Origin: Armatimonadota bacterium
GTDB lineage: Bacteria; Armatimonadota; Fimbriimonadia; Fimbriimonadales; GBS-DC
Direction of reading: 5' to 3'
Length of the DNA stretch: 64,000 bases
Assembly: GCA_037444405.1 (NCBI GenBank)
Contig: JBBIML010000008.1
Span: 142,676-206,675, forward strand
In this document: positions 32,347-56,738 of the stretch, one piece after another
How positions within the stretch are numbered: position 1 is the first letter of the stretch
How the letters are laid out: each line of letters opens with the position of its first letter
Position numbers and translations under genes: made by a program
The notes under the pieces: model-generated
Told to the model about the DNA's origin: nothing
The model's database searches: none
What the model saw: the letters and a program-made list of their open reading frames with translations, nothing else

Positions 32347-32421
32347 TGGTGGGCGGTGCTGGACTTGAACCAGCGACCTCCTCGGTGTGAACGAGGCGCT
32401 CTGCCACTGAGCTAACCGCCC
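32347..32421 (-). tRNA. tRNA-Val(CAC)
   Basis: GGGCGGTTAGCTCAG...CCTCG-TTCACAC-CGAGG...GGTTCAAGTCC...ACCA. Confidence 0.96.
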
Positions 32422-32424
32422 TGC

Positions 32425-32510
32425 TGGTGCGCGGGGTGGGACTCGAACCCACACGGGCTGCGCCCACATGGCCCTCAACCATGCGTGTCTACCAGTTCCA
32501 CCACCCGCGC
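32425..32510 (-). tRNA. tRNA-Leu(GAG)
   Basis: GCGCGGGTGGTGGAACTGGTAGAC...CATGG-TTGAGGG-CCATG, long variable arm, GGTTCGAGTCC...ACCA. Confidence 0.96.
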
Positions 32511-42990: not shown

Positions 42991-43065
42991 TGGCGCCCCC
43001 GGCAGGAATCGAACCTGCGCACCAGGCTCCGGAGGCCTGCGCTCTATCCACTGAGCTACGGGGGC
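42991..43065 (-). tRNA. tRNA-Arg(CCG)
   Basis: GCCCCCGTAGCTCAGTGGATAGAGC-CAGGC-CTCCGGA-GCCTG...GGTTCGATTCC...GCCA. Confidence 0.96.
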
Positions 43066-53315: not shown

Positions 53316-54485
53316 ATGCAGGCACAACGAGCAATTCTCATTGTAATGGATGGGTGTGGGGTGGGGGCGGCGCCTGATGCGGCGGAGTATGGCGACACGG
53401 GGGAGAATAGCCCCAACACGCTGGGGCATCTAATGGAAGCGGTCGGCGGGCTGAACCTGCCCTGCCTGCAGTCGCTGGGACTGGGCAACATCATCCCCCT
53501 GAAAGGGGTGCCGCCCGCCGAAACGCCCTGCGCCTGCTTCGGCAGGGTGCAGCCCTGCTCTAAAGGCAAAGATTCGGTTACAGGGCACTGGGAGATGATG
53601 GGCATTCTCACCGAGCAGCCGTTCCCCACCTATCCGAACGGCTTCCCGCCAGAGCTGATTGCCGAGTTTGAGCGGCGCATCGGGCGCAGCGTGCTGGGCA
53701 ACTATCCCGCGTCAGGCACCGAAATCATTAAGCAGCTGGGCGAGGAGCATCTGCGCACGGGCTATCCCATCGTCTACACCAGCGCCGACAGTGTGTTCCA
53801 GATTGCGGCGCACGAGGCGGTTATCCCCGTCGAGGAGCTGTATCGCATGTGCGAGATTGCCCGCGAACTGCTTCAGCCGCCGCATCATGTGCAGCGGGTG
53901 ATTGCTCGCCCTTTTGAAGGCACCGACGCCAGCAACTTCCGTCGCACGGAGCGACGGCGCGATTTCCCGCTGCCGCCACCGCCCAACCTGATCGATCGCC
54001 TTGCCGAGCGGGGTATCGGCATATATGGGATTGGCGTCGTGCCCGAAATCTTCACTTATCGCGGTTTTAGGCACGCCGAGCGCACGCAGAGCAATCCCCA
54101 GCATTTTGAGGCGCTGCTGAGGGCGATGGCGAGCGACTGTGCCTTCATCTTCGCCAACTTCGAGGATTTCGACATGCTCTATGGACATCGCAACGACCCT
54201 GCGGGCTTCGCGCGGGCGTTAGCCGAGTTCGATATGATGCTCTCGACGATTCTGGAGCGGCTCCGACCCACCGACCTGCTGATATTGACGGCGGATCACG
54301 GCAACGATCCCACCACGCCCAGCACGGATCATTCGCGCGAGTATCTGCCCCTGTTGCTCTACTCGCCTTCGATTCAGCGGGGCTATGCGGTGGGCACGCG
54401 CCGCTCGCTGGCGGATATTGGCGCGACGATTGGCGCGTTATGGGATGTGGCGGTGGAGGCGGGCGTGCCGATTCAGCTTGCCTGA
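53316..54485 (+). CDS. deoB: Phosphopentomutase
   Basis: DGCGVG..PDA, GKDSVTGHWE, YTSADSVFQ, YGHRND and TADHGNDP motifs. Confidence 0.97.
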   Translation: MQAQRAILIVMDGCGVGAAPDAAEYGDTGENSPNTLGHLMEAVGGLNLPCLQSLGLGNIIPLKGVPPAETPCACFGRVQPCSKGKDSVTGHWEMMGILTEQPFPTYPNGFPPELIAEFERRIGRSVLGNYPASGTEIIKQLGEEHLRTGYPIVYTSADSVFQIAAHEAVIPVEELYRMCEIARELLQPPHHVQRVIARPFEGTDASNFRRTERRRDFPLPPPPNLIDRLAERGIGIYGIGVVPEIFTYRGFRHAERTQSNPQHFEALLRAMASDCAFIFANFEDFDMLYGHRNDPAGFARALAEFDMMLSTILERLRPTDLLILTADHGNDPTTPSTDHSREYLPLLLYSPSIQRGYAVGTRRSLADIGATIGALWDVAVEAGVPIQLA

Positions 54486-55102
54486 TCGGGCAATGTCGCC
54501 CGCTCCTGCTCGCTCAGGTGGAGCTGCACTTCGGCGTCCGCCAGCTGAATCACCGTGTGTTCATTGCTGTTGCGCAGCTCTTCGATAATCGCGTCGATCT
54601 TTTCGGGGGTGAGCCGTCGGCAGTAGATGTCGCCCACCTGCATCACGGGCGCGTCGCCACAGTTGTTGAGGCATTCCACTTCGGTCAGCGTGAACAGCCC
54701 ATCGGGTGTGGTCTCGCCCAGCTGGATGCCGAGCTTCTGCTGCAGATATTCCAGGATTCGGTACGCGCCGCACAGCATGCAGCTCAGGTTGGTGCAGACC
54801 TCCAGCATATATTTGCCGACGGGCTGCTTGTTATACATCGTGTAGAAGGTGGCGACGCCTTCCACTTCGGCGCAGGAGCGCCCGAGCCGATAGGCGACTT
54901 CGGCAATCGCTTCGGGTGGCAGGTAGCCGCCGTACTCGCGCTGGGCAATCCAGAGGGCGGGCAACATCGCCGACTTGCGGTCGGGATAGTGCTGGAGGAT
55001 CAGCTCCAGTTCACGAATGGCGCGTTCAGAGAATCGCAGGGTCAGCTCCTGCGGGCGTGGTGGGCGCAGTTGCGCCGAGAGCCGAATCGGTTGCTGTTCC
55101 AT
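54473..55102 (-). CDS. nuoE: NADH-quinone oxidoreductase subunit E (orphan)
   Basis: YP..SA.LP.L..AQ, VATFYTMY, CTNLSC and ECL..C..AP motifs. Confidence 0.9.
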   Translation of the reverse strand: MEQQPIRLSAQLRPPRPQELTLRFSERAIRELELILQHYPDRKSAMLPALWIAQREYGGYLPPEAIAEVAYRLGRSCAEVEGVATFYTMYNKQPVGKYMLEVCTNLSCMLCGAYRILEYLQQKLGIQLGETTPDGLFTLTEVECLNNCGDAPVMQVGDIYCRRLTPEKIDAIIEELRNSNEHTVIQLADAEVQLHLSEQERATLPDQAS

Positions 55103-55134
55103 CGCTGGGATTGTACCTGATAGGGCGGGCGTCG

Positions 55135-55461
55135 AATAAAAAGAGCCCGAGCGAATCGGTCTGCCCTTTTCGGTTCCGCTTGGCTTGCTGCCGTCCTGCG
55201 GACTCGGTGCCCCGACCGACATTGCTGCCGATCCTGAGGCGCCGCCACTCCACGAGTGAGCAGCAGGCTTCGGGCGGTTCCTATCCGCCGTTCACGCGCG
55301 CCCAACACTGGGGCGCGGGCTGCGCGTGTTGCTCCCTGCGCGGTCTCTCCATCGCCTGCCCGTCGCCGGCGCAACAGGCATCGATGGCTCCGAGCAAGGC
55401 TCCCGACGGCAGGGACACCTGCCTTCGCTCGGGCGACGGTCATCGAGTTTCCCCGATAACC
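55135..55461 (-). ncRNA. Candidate large structured ncRNA of unknown class
   Basis: Sigma70 promoter upstream, a chain of GC hairpins with GAAA and GCAA tetraloops, and a terminal hairpin followed by TTTTTATT; no credible ORF. Confidence 0.65.
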
Positions 55462-55467
55462 GCTCCT

Positions 55468-55497
55468 ATTATACCACACCGATGACGGCTTTGTCAA
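55468..55497 (-). promoter_or_regulatory. Sigma70 promoter of the candidate ncRNA
   Basis: TTGACA-18 nt-TATAAT with extended -10 TGTGG. Confidence 0.8.
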
Positions 55498-55615
55498 GGG
55501 GTCGAGGGGGAATCTGGGGTTTTTCGAGGGCGAATCGGGGGAAATTTCGGGCAAAATCGGGGGGTTCTGGCGCTCGAAGCCGTCGCGCGAGCGCGCATGG
55601 GGTACACTCTGGGGG

Positions 55616-56137
55616 ATGGCGGAGGCGAGTCAACCAGTACGGCGGGCAATCTACCCTGGTAGCTTCGACCCGCCAACGATGGGGCATCTGGATGTCATCA
55701 CGCGGGCGGCGCGACTGTTCGACGAACTCATCGTCGCGGTCGCCATCAACAGCGACAAAAAGCCCCTCTTCAGCCTGCAGGAGCGGGTCGCCATGCTGGA
55801 GGAGTGCTGCAGGCATCTGCCGAATGTGCGCGTGATGCCGCTGGAGGGTCTGCTGGCACGCTTCGCCCAGCAGGCGGGCGCATGCGCCATCGTGCGCGGG
55901 CTGCGAGCCGTGTCCGACTTCGAATACGAGTTCCAGATGGCGACCATGAACCGCCAGCTGGCGCCCGAAGTGGACACCTGCTTTCTCATGACGCATCAAC
56001 AGTACGCCTTTCTGTCGTCGTCCATCGTGAAGGAGGTGGCGCGGCTCGGCGGCGATGTGAGCCAGCTGGTGCCCCCCAATGTGCTGACCCGCCTGCAACA
56101 AAAATTCGCCTCACCATCGGCAGGAGACGGTCTCTGA
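55616..56137 (+). CDS. coaD: Phosphopantetheine adenylyltransferase
   Basis: YPGSFDP.T.GH, RGLRAVSDFEYE and SSSIVKEVA motifs. Confidence 0.98.
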   Translation: MAEASQPVRRAIYPGSFDPPTMGHLDVITRAARLFDELIVAVAINSDKKPLFSLQERVAMLEECCRHLPNVRVMPLEGLLARFAQQAGACAIVRGLRAVSDFEYEFQMATMNRQLAPEVDTCFLMTHQQYAFLSSSIVKEVARLGGDVSQLVPPNVLTRLQQKFASPSAGDGL

Positions 56138-56186
56138 ACCGCGAATCAGCAATCCAACCCTGGTGCAAGCGACGGAGGATCGGGCG

Positions 56187-56738
56187 ATGATTAACACGGA
56201 TGTCATAACTATCAGGCGATGGCTGCGTGAGCTGGATCAGATGCTGGAGAACAGCCGCAGTTTCGGACCCATCGTGTTCGGCTTGAACAAAGGCGAATGC
56301 CTGAACCTGGTTCAGCAGATTCTGGCGAATCTGCCGTCGGATCTGGACAAGGCGGAGCGGGTGCTGCGCGAGTCGGATCGGCTGGTGGGCGGTGCGCAGG
56401 TGGAGGCGCGCATGACCCTCGAACAGGCGCGGGAGGAAGCCCAGCGGATTATCGAGCAGGCGCGGCAGCAGGCGGAGGCGATTCTGGAACGCGCCCGCGC
56501 CGAGCAGGAGCGCATGCTGGCGCAGACCGAAGTCTACCAGCTGGCAGAGGCGCAGGCACGCGAAATCGTGGAGACCGCCCGCCAGAAGGCACAGCAGATT
56601 CGGCAGGGCGCCGACGAATACGCCTATGAGGTGCTGACCGAGCTGGAGGGCGCGCTCGCCAAAGTGATGAGCACCGTGCAGAACGGCAAGGCGCTCCTGG
56701 AAGACCATCTCAAGCAACGCGTGGGCGCACGCCGCTGA
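56187..56738 (+). CDS. Coiled-coil protein typically downstream of coaD (DivIVA/SepIVA-like)
   Basis: A..EA..I heptads and a GADEYA motif. Confidence 0.75.
   Translation: MINTDVITIRRWLRELDQMLENSRSFGPIVFGLNKGECLNLVQQILANLPSDLDKAERVLRESDRLVGGAQVEARMTLEQAREEAQRIIEQARQQAEAILERARAEQERMLAQTEVYQLAEAQAREIVETARQKAQQIRQGADEYAYEVLTELEGALAKVMSTVQNGKALLEDHLKQRVGARR

What the first reader, a model, noticed from the sequence alone, without database searches (positions are those of the whole stretch)
55135..55497. ~330-nt highly structured ncRNA with its own promoter and terminator between nuoE and coaD
Seen on the minus strand: TTGACA-18-TATAAT, then at the expected start a 10-bp hairpin GGUUAUCGGG-GAAA-CUCGAUGACC. 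It is followed by CCGAGC(G)AAGGC/GCCUUGCUCGG with an alternative inner GGCAGG/CCUGCC hairpin, and CCAUCG/CGAUGG enclosing UGCCUGUUGC/GCGACGGGCA. A GCAGG/CCUGC junction holds CACGCGC/GCGCGUG and GGCGG/CCGCC. Then come CACUC/GAGUG, GAUCGGCA-GCAA-UGUCGGUC and GUCC/GGAC, and finally GGGC..CCGA/UCGG GCUC followed by UUUUUAUU. CCGUCGCC/GGCGACGG could form a pseudoknot. G-U pairs favour this strand. nuoE has its own TACAAT box (55110-55115), so the RNA looks independent. It lacks RNase P, tmRNA, T-box and intact SRP signatures. Inference: an undescribed large ncRNA, or an attenuating leader for nuoE.
Basis: partly seen in the sequence, partly recalled or inferred. Interest (0 to 1): 0.82.

Follow-up and report, generated by a model that had tools for sequence, protein, structure and literature searches.

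The report
New large structured RNA in Fimbriimonadales
This is a real, separately transcribed RNA gene of about 325 bases with an elaborate, evolutionarily conserved fold that matches no known RNA family and is found only in one family of mostly hot-spring bacteria, so it looks like a new class of large non-coding RNA whose job is still unknown.

Summary
The finding holds. On the minus strand, about 55461-55136, lies a roughly 325-nt RNA gene. It starts 7 nt after a perfect TTGACA-18-TGnTATAAT promoter. It ends in a U tract that directly follows a 9-10 bp helix closing the whole molecule.

I collected 52 distinct full-length homologues. A 15-helix structure is 91.8% paired across them, against 35-41% when partners are slid. 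56 of 92 pairs change on both sides, against 17-24 in slid controls.

Rfam 15 gives no hit for the window or for 8 homologous loci. RNase P, SRP and tmRNA are encoded elsewhere in the genome, and a sub-threshold 6S candidate lies elsewhere too.

A covariance model finds the RNA in 25 of 28 other genomes of the window's own family. It finds none in 122 genomes of four sister families or in 149 further Armatimonadota. Named records that hold it are all Fimbriimonadales or Armatimonadota MAGs.

Flanking genes differ between lineages, so it is not a nuoE leader.

Function is unknown. My best inference is a stable, abundant, trans-acting RNA that works through its tertiary fold, most likely as a protein-binding scaffold.

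The parts
55468..55497 (-). Promoter: -35 TTGACA (55497-55492), 18-nt spacer with TG at 55476-55475, -10 TATAAT (55473-55468).
   Evidence: scores it 12 of 12 with TG. One search examined 50 homologues that have enough upstream DNA: 41 have TTGACA-18-TATAAT, 8 have TTGACA-18-TAnnnT, and 47 have TG at -15/-14. One search finds only 23 CTTGACA-N16-18-TATAAT sites in the 2.68-Mb genome.
55136..55461 (-). The RNA itself, about 325 nt. The start is inferred 7 nt after the -10 box and the end is inferred within the U tract.
   Evidence: The ends are inferred from the promoter and the U tract, not measured.
55437..55462 (-). P1, a 5'-terminal hairpin of 11 bp with GNRA tetraloop GAAA (55451-55448).
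   Evidence: helix 1: 99.2% paired, and 6 of 10 pairs change on both sides. Reading the rows of the alignment, the loop is GAAA, GAGA, GCAA or GGAA.
55426..55434 (-). P2 5' strand (GCCCGAGCG). It pairs with 55153-55145 and closes the whole molecule.
   Evidence: helix 2: 100% paired. CCCGAG/CUCGGG becomes CCCAAG/CUUGGG in L064 and L100 and CCCGAAACGA/UCGUUUCGGG in G004.
55145..55153 (-). P2 3' strand (CGCUCGGGC), directly followed by the U tract.
55135..55144 (-). U tract (UCUUUUUAUU). Together with P2 it is the presumed intrinsic terminator.
   Evidence: 51 of 51 homologues with a tail have at least 5 U in the first 9 nt after P2. The simple terminator scan finds nothing because the stem is long-range.
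55413..55419 (-). P3 5' strand (GGU, GUCC). It pairs with 55166-55158.
   Evidence: helix 3: 73% paired in the MAFFT register, and 7 of 10 pairs change on both sides. It is a continuous 10 bp in L077. Compensatory changes in L018, L005 and L064 were seen by reading the alignments.
55404..55409 (-). P4 5' strand (CCGUCG). It pairs with 55290-55285 (CGGCGG) and encloses domain I (P5-P7).
   Evidence: helix 4: 97.1% paired. Column pair 58/184 is CG 26, UA 22, GC 4. Column pair 61/181 is UA 23, CG 22.
55334..55399 (-). P5 (CCUUGC 55399-55394 with GCAGGG 55339-55334) and its variable hairpin extension.
   Evidence: helices 5 and 6 (95.5% and 85.4% paired). folds the extension in G000.
55293..55328 (-). 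P6 (55328-55322 with 55299-55293), P7 (55320-55317 with 55303-55300), and a loop at 55316-55304 that holds the invariant GCCCCAG.
   Evidence: helices 7 and 8 (100% and 93.8% paired). One search lists the invariant columns G150-G156.
55278..55284 (-). Junction AUAGGAA between P4 and P8. UAGGA is invariant in 52 of 52 sequences.
   Evidence: invariant columns T181-A185.
55176..55277 (-). Domain II. It comprises P8 (55277-55274 with 55179-55176), P9 (55268-55260 with 55191-55183), P10 (55258-55254 with 55250-55246), P11 (55244-55226 with 55221-55205, GCAA loop) and P12 (55203-55200 with 55196-55193).
   Evidence: helices 9-13. One search shows P8 in lineage-specific registers: CCGC/GCGG, CUGCG/CGCAG, CACU/AGUG, CGCUC/GAGCG. 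One search gives the window coordinates.
55167..55175 (-). Junction AACCGAAAA between P8 and P3. The core CCGAAAAGG is nearly invariant.
   Evidence: invariant and nearly invariant columns C291-G299.
55616..56137 (+). coaD-like gene, transcribed divergently. It is a neighbour, not part of the RNA.
   Evidence: CTP_transf_like, 1.7e-30; it lies upstream of the RNA in 5 of the 58 loci searched (48 have at least 650 nt upstream). Those 5 include all four g1-genus genome loci.
54473..55102 (-). NuoE-like gene downstream. It is a neighbour, not part of the RNA.
   Evidence: 2Fe-2S_thioredx, 2.9e-53; it lies downstream of the RNA in 2 of 58 loci.

Best explanation
Window 55461-55136 (minus strand) is the gene of a previously undescribed, single-copy RNA of about 325 nt.

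Shown:
- It has its own consensus sigma-70 promoter and a U tract at its end.
- It folds into a conserved architecture. There is a 5'-terminal GNRA hairpin (P1). Two long-range helices (P2, P3) clamp the molecule. They enclose two multi-helix domains (P4-P7 and P8-P12).
- The junctions and loops carry invariant sequences: GGGA, GCCCCAG, UAGGA, CCGAAAAGG, and the GGAUCGG...GGU hairpin with two fixed G.U pairs.

Inferred:
- Transcription starts at the first base pair of P1. It stops when the 3' strand of P2 pairs with its partner about 280 nt upstream, just before the U tract. The finished RNA therefore has both ends buried in helices and should be stable and abundant.
- It acts in trans through its tertiary fold, not by regulating the gene next to it.
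- The most likely mode is as the RNA partner or scaffold of one or more proteins encoded elsewhere. I give this about 0.4-0.5 within this explanation. The invariant, twofold-symmetric UCGG/UCGG helix and the invariant single-stranded junctions are the candidate recognition sites.
For: Promoter: 12 of 12 with TG. It is conserved with an 18-nt spacer in 49 of 50 homologues as TTGACA-18-TAnnnT, 41 of them perfect. The genome has only 23 such sites.

Terminator: a U tract follows P2 in 51 of 51 homologues.

Fold: z -6.9 on this strand against -2.8 on the other. The comparative structure, when enforced, costs only about 5 kcal/mol against the free MFE (-178.8 against -184).

Covariation on 52 distinct sequences: 91.8% of cells are paired, against 35-41% when slid. 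56 of 92 pairs change on both sides, against 17-24. No shuffle out of 500 reaches the observed value on any of the five measures.

Not a known RNA: no Rfam hit.

Copy number: one full match per genome.

Not coding: stop-free frames differ in strand and phase between homologues, and 16 of 52 have none.

Not tied to a neighbour: the downstream gene is NuoE-like, MBL/Ada_Zn, ABC ATPase, baeRF10, PilB-like or GT2. The upstream gene is coaD, class IV aminotransferase, HisG, GGDEF or unknown. In genus g1 the RNA stays beside coaD while the downstream gene changes.
Against: - There is no expression data: no RNA run was listed. Transcript ends, abundance and stability are therefore all inferred.
- No partner protein is identified, and no conserved neighbouring gene points to one.
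- In the loci where I could name it, the downstream gene is on the same strand and starts about 7-130 nt after the U tract by the ORF listing. That layout also fits a leader with a leaky terminator.
- A long-range stem is an unusual intrinsic terminator.
- The sequences are related. They come from six genera of one family plus metagenome contigs, so the shuffle control overstates significance. The slid control is the fairer one.
- P3 and P8 score low in the MAFFT register (73% and 64%) and needed lineage-specific registers read by hand or script.
Confidence: 0.6

Rival explanations
1. It is a cis-acting leader, either a riboswitch-like or a protein- or RNA-sensing attenuator. Its P2 plus U tract would end transcription unless a signal prevents closure, so that the co-oriented downstream gene is expressed by read-through from the very strong promoter.
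For: A downstream gene on the same strand begins about 7-130 nt after the U tract in the loci where genes could be named. L064 and L018 first looked convergent, but Pfam showed co-oriented genes there too. Two downstream genes recur across lineages. MBL/Ada_Zn occurs in L003 and L064, and apparently in G006, judged only from the N-terminal sequence. The PilB-like gene occurs in most of genus g3. A local hairpin that would block P2, P3 and P4 can be drawn in all 29 distinct versions of that segment.
Against: At least six unrelated gene families sit downstream. Within one genus the RNA stays with the divergent upstream coaD while the downstream gene is swapped. The alternative hairpin has no covariation support in a fixed register: 72% paired against 69% at slide -3, and a covariation score of 0.135 against 0.10-0.20 in slid controls. 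Several downstream genes have a -10-like box a few bases before their start codon, for example TACAAT-7-ATG at 55115-55100 (read by eye). At 325 nt it would be larger than the riboswitch aptamers I recall, which is recollection and was not checked here.
Confidence: 0.12
2. It is an RNA that works without a dedicated protein. It would be either a new ribozyme or an RNA that self-assembles into a higher-order particle, as was reported for GOLLD and two other large bacterial RNAs.
For: Its size and the number of helices. At least two conserved GNRA tetraloops, in P1 and P11, which are typical docking elements (read from the rows). Invariant nucleotides are concentrated in junctions and loops, not in stems. 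P12 is self-complementary in two genera (GCUUCGAAGC, GCUGUACAGC). The abstract of bioRxiv 10.1101/2024.12.08.627333, seen in the listing, reports ornate RNA-only complexes.
Against: No substrate, cleavage site or processing signal is visible. The palindromic P12 is not conserved in genus g1. Nothing here tests catalysis or assembly.
Confidence: 0.18
3. It is a highly diverged member of a known housekeeping or orphan RNA family (RNase P, tmRNA, SRP, 6S, OLE, raiA, HEARO and the like) that the models fail to recognise.
For: Lineage-specific divergence can defeat covariance models. The 6S hit in this genome is itself below threshold (30 bits against 46.4).
Against: RNase P (273 bits), small SRP (71 bits) and tmRNA (180.5 bits) are found elsewhere in the same genome. 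A 6S-like candidate with a rod-like fold lies on another contig. The permissive Rfam scan of the locus gives at best 16 bits for PrrB_RsmZ at E 0.33. 8 homologous loci give only a tRNA. The multi-domain architecture is unlike the 6S rod.
Confidence: 0.04
4. It is not a functional RNA. It would be a conserved intergenic DNA element, a mobile-element remnant or a mis-called protein gene.
For: A 170-codon ORF (55042-55554, minus strand) spans the region.
Against: Compensatory changes keep the helices. The G.U pairs are strand-specific. Open frames are not conserved. There is one copy per genome. There was no hit in viral contigs. The promoter and U tract are conserved.
Confidence: 0.02

Closest known systems
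OLE RNA (ornate, large, extremophilic RNA of anaerobic Firmicutes)
   Same: It is a large, intricately folded, lineage-restricted bacterial RNA of extremophiles. The abstract of PMC3413148 (listing) describes it as exceptionally highly expressed and working with a protein partner. It is the model for the 'RNA scaffold of a protein complex' reading.
   Different: There is no sequence or structure match: no Rfam hit, and OLE is in Rfam by my recollection. This RNA is about 325 nt, while OLE is about 600 nt as I recall. It is in a different phylum. No adjacent partner gene of the kind I recall beside OLE was seen here.
raiA motif, the smtA motif and other orphan large ncRNAs from comparative genomics of intergenic regions
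   Same: These are free-standing, strongly covarying RNAs of unknown function that are not tied to one downstream gene. [quoted passage not shown]
   Different: No model match. This RNA has a different taxon and architecture. None of the terms Armatimonad, Fimbriimonas or Chthonomonas occurs in that paper's main text.
GOLLD and related large bacterial RNAs
   Same: Size class and ornate fold. They have been shown to form RNA-only complexes (abstract of bioRxiv 10.1101/2024.12.08.627333, listing).
   Different: No model match. This RNA is smaller. It has a chromosomal single-copy gene with a housekeeping-type promoter. It was not found in viral contigs.
Stable housekeeping RNAs (RNase P RNA, 6S RNA, SRP RNA, tmRNA)
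   Same: Own strong promoter, one copy per genome, and ends held in a terminal helix.
   Different: All four have separate loci or candidates in this genome. This RNA is confined to one bacterial family.
Transcription-terminating riboswitch or leader
   Same: The order promoter, structured RNA, U tract, then a co-oriented gene.
   Different: Downstream genes are unrelated in function. There is no supported alternative fold. The terminator stem is the closing helix of the whole RNA, not a separate expression platform.

Membership tests
Any Rfam 15 family (4227 models) | Score at or above the family's gathering threshold | tested here: not met
   (whole window) found only three tRNAs elsewhere. 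In one search (locus, E up to 10) the best hit was PrrB_RsmZ at 16 bits against a threshold of 44. One search (8 homologous loci) found one tRNA only.
Bacterial RNase P RNA (RF00010) | Match to the type A model; one per genome | tested here: not met
   The genome's RNase P RNA is at G000:C11:66178-66520, 273 bits. There is no hit at the locus.
tmRNA (RF00023) | tRNA-like ends and a tag reading frame; match to the model | tested here: not met
   tmRNA is at G000:C13:111856-112206, 180.5 bits. There is no hit at the locus.
Small SRP RNA (RF00169) | Domain IV motif; match to the model | tested here: not met
   SRP RNA is at G000:C9:190672-190770, 71.1 bits. There is no hit at the locus.
6S RNA (RF00013) | Rod of about 180 nt with a central bubble; match to the model | tested here: not met
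   The only 6S-like hit is G000:C11:105640-105821, at 30 bits and below the 46.4 cut-off. It folds as a rod at -98.5 kcal/mol, z -4.1. The RNA studied here is a two-domain, multi-branched fold.
Riboswitch or attenuating leader | Constant association with downstream genes of one pathway or function | tested here: not met
   Six unrelated downstream gene families. In genus g1 the downstream gene changes while the upstream coaD stays.
Riboswitch or attenuating leader | Two mutually exclusive conserved folds (terminator and anti-terminator) | tested here: inconclusive
   A competing local hairpin can be folded in all 29 distinct versions of the segment. In a fixed register it shows no more pairing or covariation than slid controls. 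No shuffle control was run on the single-sequence folds.
Independent ncRNA gene | Own conserved promoter and terminator; conserved, covarying structure; not coding | tested here: met
   promoter and U tract; covariation; no conserved frame. Transcription itself was not testable.
Intrinsic terminator | G+C-rich hairpin with a short loop, directly followed by a U run | tested here: inconclusive
   The U run is present in 51 of 51 homologues. The conserved stem before it is long-range (P2, closing about 280 nt), and the consensus scan finds no local hairpin. The function was not testable here.

The most novel reading that the evidence does not exclude
This is a new class of large catalytic or self-assembling RNA, either a ribozyme or an RNA-only particle. 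It would have evolved within one family of Fimbriimonadales known mostly from hot springs, and its invariant junctions (GCCCCAG loop, UAGGA, CCGAAAAGG) would form an active site or assembly interface.
Probability: 0.15. Interest if true: 0.92.

Novelty: categorically new. Interest (0 to 1): 0.68.

Why it matters
Bacterial RNAs longer than about 300 nt that have many conserved helices and invariant junction nucleotides are few. As I recall, those that have been understood turned out to be ribozymes or cores of ribonucleoprotein machines, such as RNase P, tmRNA, SRP, group I and II introns and OLE.

A new one comes with 52 natural variants and a well-supported 15-helix map. It also has a consensus promoter of a kind that occurs only 23 times in the genome. 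That makes it a ready-made object for structure determination and partner hunting.

It also marks a little-studied phylum (Armatimonadota) that Rfam does not seem to cover with lineage-specific families, as far as I recall.

If it proves to be only a stable RNA of narrow distribution with a modest regulatory role, the interest is limited to that family.

Tried and rejected
I built a 137-position core model instead. Helices P1-P5 and P12 are therefore aligned by MAFFT only.
- Expression: the look-up of sequencing runs listed no RNA holder.
- Literature: searches and term look-ups in two papers found no description of an Armatimonadota or Fimbriimonadales ncRNA.
- Chance matches set aside:
  - 4 of 40 metagenome pattern hits (L066, L078, L082, L099) have no homology outside the pattern.
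  - The single phylum-level CM hit, G160, has E 1.2e-3 and lacks every hallmark motif.
  - 9 hairpin-pattern hits lie outside the family. 8 were tested with the model, and at best 15.4 bits covered the hairpin alone. The ninth, G393, had no locus and was not tested.
  - The short blastn hits in families f5 and elsewhere are 30-45 nt pieces, mostly of the promoter.
- CsrA/RsmZ-type sponge: I considered it because of the weak PrrB_RsmZ hit and the GGA motifs. I dropped it because the fold is not a row of GGA-loop hairpins. This was not tested further.
- Conserved synteny as a clue to function: none was found across genera.
- Pseudoknots between invariant loops (GCCCCAG with GGG of the GGGA junction; GGAG with CUCC): either both sides are invariant or the pairing is not kept in genus g1, so nothing can be said.
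- Viral contigs: 0 hits.

Full report
**What is at the locus**

On the minus strand of the window, TTGACA (55497-55492) and TATAAT (55473-55468) are separated by 18 nt whose last bases are TGG. This is the only promoter-like site that the consensus scan finds in 54500-56200, and it scores 12 of 12 with the extended -10 TG.

Seven bases after the -10 box begins an 11-bp hairpin with a GAAA loop. From there to the U run at 55144-55135, the strand folds at -184 kcal/mol against -148 +/- 5 for dinucleotide shuffles (z -6.9). The complementary strand gives z -2.8.

The neighbours are a coaD-like gene on the plus strand (55616-56137), transcribed divergently, and a NuoE-like gene on the minus strand (55102-54473).

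**It is not a known RNA**

- Rfam 15 at gathering thresholds finds only three tRNAs elsewhere in the window.
- A permissive scan of the locus gives at best PrrB_RsmZ at 16 bits, E 0.33, against a threshold of 44.
- Eight homologous loci from other genomes give only one tRNA.
- The same genome encodes RNase P RNA (273 bits), small SRP RNA (71 bits) and tmRNA (180.5 bits) on other contigs.
- It also has a 6S-like candidate below threshold (30 bits) that folds as a rod.
- Literature searches found no description of an ncRNA from this phylum. Look-ups in two recent discovery papers found none of the taxon names.

**Homologues and distribution**

- blastn found the region in 22 of 28 other genomes of the window's family.
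- A three-motif pattern taken from the first alignment hit 22 records among the species genomes. All are titled Fimbriimonadales or Armatimonadota MAGs.
- The same kind of pattern hit 40 metagenome contigs. 36 are true homologues by nhmmer and 4 are chance.
- After de-duplication there are 56 distinct sequences, 52 of them full length.
A 137-position model of the core (R1) finds one full copy in 25 of 28 other family members.
- It finds none in 122 genomes of the four sister families of the order: f2 0 of 3, f3 0 of 98, f4 0 of 1, f5 0 of 20.
- The three family members without a match are 94%, 87% and 85% complete.
- In a 150-genome sample of the phylum outside the window's own genome, the only hit (E 1.2e-3) lacks all hallmark motifs and is rejected.
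- The invariant hairpin used as a bare pattern occurs in 9 of 397 genomes outside the family. The model finds nothing around the 8 that were tested.
- No viral contig holds the pattern.
- The most diverged members are still recognisable. The L064/L100 lineage and G006 have CCCAAG/CUUGGG in the closing helix. G004 has CCCGAAACGA/UCGUUUCGGG. All keep the same order of elements.

These are samples of their groups, and the filters used above 40 genomes lose weak matches. The correct statement is 'not found in those searched'.

**Structure**

I derived helices from averaged base-pair probabilities of 25 representative sequences projected on the alignment and from reading the alignments. I then counted them on the 52-sequence MAFFT alignment A2.

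| Measure (92 pairs in 13 helix blocks) | Proposed structure | 3' partners slid by 1-3 columns |
|---|---|---|
| Cells paired | 91.8% | 35-41% |
| Pairs with a change on both sides | 56 | 17-24 |
| Covariation score | 0.307 | 0.07-0.09 |

None of 500 column shuffles reaches any observed measure. The sequences are related, so the shuffle figure is not a probability, and the slid control is the fairer comparison.

The architecture in window coordinates is:

- P1: 5'-terminal hairpin with a GNRA loop.
- P2: 55434-55426 with 55153-55145. It closes the whole RNA.
- P3: 55419-55413 with 55166-55158.
- Domain I: P4 encloses P5, with a variable hairpin extension, and P6-P7. The P7 loop carries the invariant GCCCCAG.
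- The invariant junction AUAGGAA.
- Domain II: P8 and P9 enclose P10, the long P11 with a GNRA loop, and P12.
- The junction AACCGAAAA, then back into P3 and P2.

Enforcing this structure on the window's sequence gives -178.8 kcal/mol, close to the unconstrained optimum.

P3 (73% paired) and P8 (64%) score lower only because MAFFT places genera in registers one or two columns apart. Read lineage by lineage, they are kept with compensatory changes:

- P3 is 10 continuous pairs in L077.
- P8 is CCGC/GCGG, CUGCG/CGCAG, CACU/AGUG or CGCUC/GAGCG.

P11c is invariant in 52 of 52 sequences in its core U-C-G-G/U-C-G-G. Its U.G and G.U pairs would be C.A mismatches on the other strand, and this settles the strand.

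Kept:
- P1.
- The P5 extension, in the window's genus.
- P6, P10, P11c and P12.
- The U tract.

Not kept:
- CCGAGC..AAGGC/GCCUU..GCUCGG, GCAGG/CCUGC and GGCGG/CCGCC. Their strands belong to the covarying long-range helices P2, P5, P4, P8 and P9.
- The local terminator hairpin.
- The proposed pseudoknot, one arm of which lies in the variable extension.
- The 'alternative inner hairpin'. It can be folded in every version of that segment. In a fixed register it is 72% paired against 69% for one slid control, and its covariation score lies within the slid range. I therefore see no evidence of a conserved switch.

**Independent gene or leader?**

Promoter and terminator travel with the RNA:
- Of 50 homologues with enough upstream DNA, 41 have TTGACA-18-TATAAT, 8 have TTGACA-18-TAnnnT, and 47 have the TG.
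- 51 of 51 have a U-rich tail right after P2.
- The genome has only 23 CTTGACA-N16-18-TATAAT sites. Some of them, by eye, precede tRNA-like sequence. This is consistent with a highly expressed stable RNA.

The neighbours do not travel with it:
- Downstream are NuoE-like (window and closest relative only), MBL-fold/Ada_Zn, ABC ATPase, baeRF family 10, PilB-like ATPase, glycosyltransferase, and in one lineage an inserted Uma2 gene before the PilB-like gene.
- Upstream are coaD (5 of 58 loci searched, including all four g1-genus genome loci), class IV aminotransferase, HisG, GGDEF or unknown ORFs.
- Within genus g1 the RNA stays beside coaD while the downstream gene is exchanged. That is the opposite of what a cis-regulator of the downstream gene would do.

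Against my reading, the downstream gene is on the same strand and close wherever I could name it. Read-through from so strong a promoter could therefore matter. I keep the leader hypothesis at about 0.12.

The region is not coding. Stop-free frames differ in strand and phase between homologues, and 16 of 52 have none.

**How it most likely works**

Shown: a conserved promoter, a conserved U tract, a conserved and covarying two-domain fold, a single copy, and no fixed neighbour.

Inferred:
- Transcription begins at the first pair of P1.
- The 3' strand of P2 closes the molecule just before the U tract and so ends transcription.
- With both ends in helices and a consensus promoter, the RNA should be stable and abundant.
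- The invariant single-stranded junctions, at least two GNRA loops and a twofold-symmetric invariant helix point to a defined tertiary fold that is recognised by something else. By analogy with most large bacterial RNAs, that is most likely one or more proteins encoded elsewhere. I give this about 0.4-0.5.
- A ribozyme or an RNA-only assembly is the bolder alternative, at about 0.15-0.18.

None of this could be tested. No RNA run was listed, and no partner gene is suggested by synteny.

**Verdict**

This is a genuine ncRNA family with no detectable relative in Rfam 15 or in the literature I could search. Among the genomes searched it is restricted to one family of Fimbriimonadales. It has a secure secondary-structure model and an unknown function.

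G054, flagged as unpublished, contributes at most one 'no match' genome to a tally and supports no positive claim.

Noticed in passing
window 55100-55115 (minus strand); also L010, L126 and L128 just downstream of the RNA: The NuoE-like gene has TACAAT (55115-55110) only 7 nt before its ATG (55102-55100), and no clear Shine-Dalgarno sequence is visible. It may be a leaderless mRNA from its own promoter. A similar layout, a -10-like box followed 6-8 nt later by ATG, appears after the RNA in L010 (TATAAT), G006 (TATAAT) and G004 (TAAGAT).
   Followed up: partly
G000 genome, e.g. C38:6890-7149, C6:113288-113316, C9:13693-13723, C10:45501-45531: Only 23 perfect CTTGACA-N16-18-TATAAT promoters exist in the 2.68-Mb genome, most of them preceded by CC(C). 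Three are clustered within 260 nt on contig C38. Some precede tRNA-like sequence. Several precede short G+C-rich hairpins that could be further small RNAs or leaders.
   Followed up: no
G000:C11:105640-105821 (locus L041 1501-1682): A probable 6S RNA lies below Rfam's cut-off (30 bits against 46.4). It folds as a long rod (-98.5 kcal/mol, z -4.1) and is followed by a U run.
   Followed up: partly
L003 1881-2945 (+), L064 830-2167 (-), L126 downstream of the RNA: A protein with a metallo-beta-lactamase fold and a C-terminal Ada_Zn_binding domain sits directly downstream of the RNA in two distant lineages, and apparently in a third. For G006 I judged this only from an FLDVGQGD-type N-terminal region. 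Most loci of genus g3 have a PilB-like (MshEN + T2SSE) ATPase there instead. It is unclear whether this reflects old synteny or something functional.
   Followed up: partly
window 55233-55214 (P11c); A2 columns 245-264: The core of this helix, 5'-UCGG-3' paired with 5'-UCGG-3', is invariant in 52 of 52 sequences. It has a wobble pair at each end and is twofold symmetric. This pattern would suit a dimeric protein or metal-ion sites.
   Followed up: no
L018 843-1493 (-): In one g3 sub-lineage a Uma2-family (putative restriction endonuclease) gene is inserted between the RNA and the PilB-like gene.
   Followed up: no
window 32350-32510 and 42994-43065 (minus strand): There are three tRNA genes. 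Two of them are only 6 nt apart (32350-32421 and 32428-32510).
   Followed up: no
L013 1358-1431 (+): In one g3 genome a tRNA gene lies about 100 nt upstream of the RNA's promoter on the same strand.
   Followed up: no
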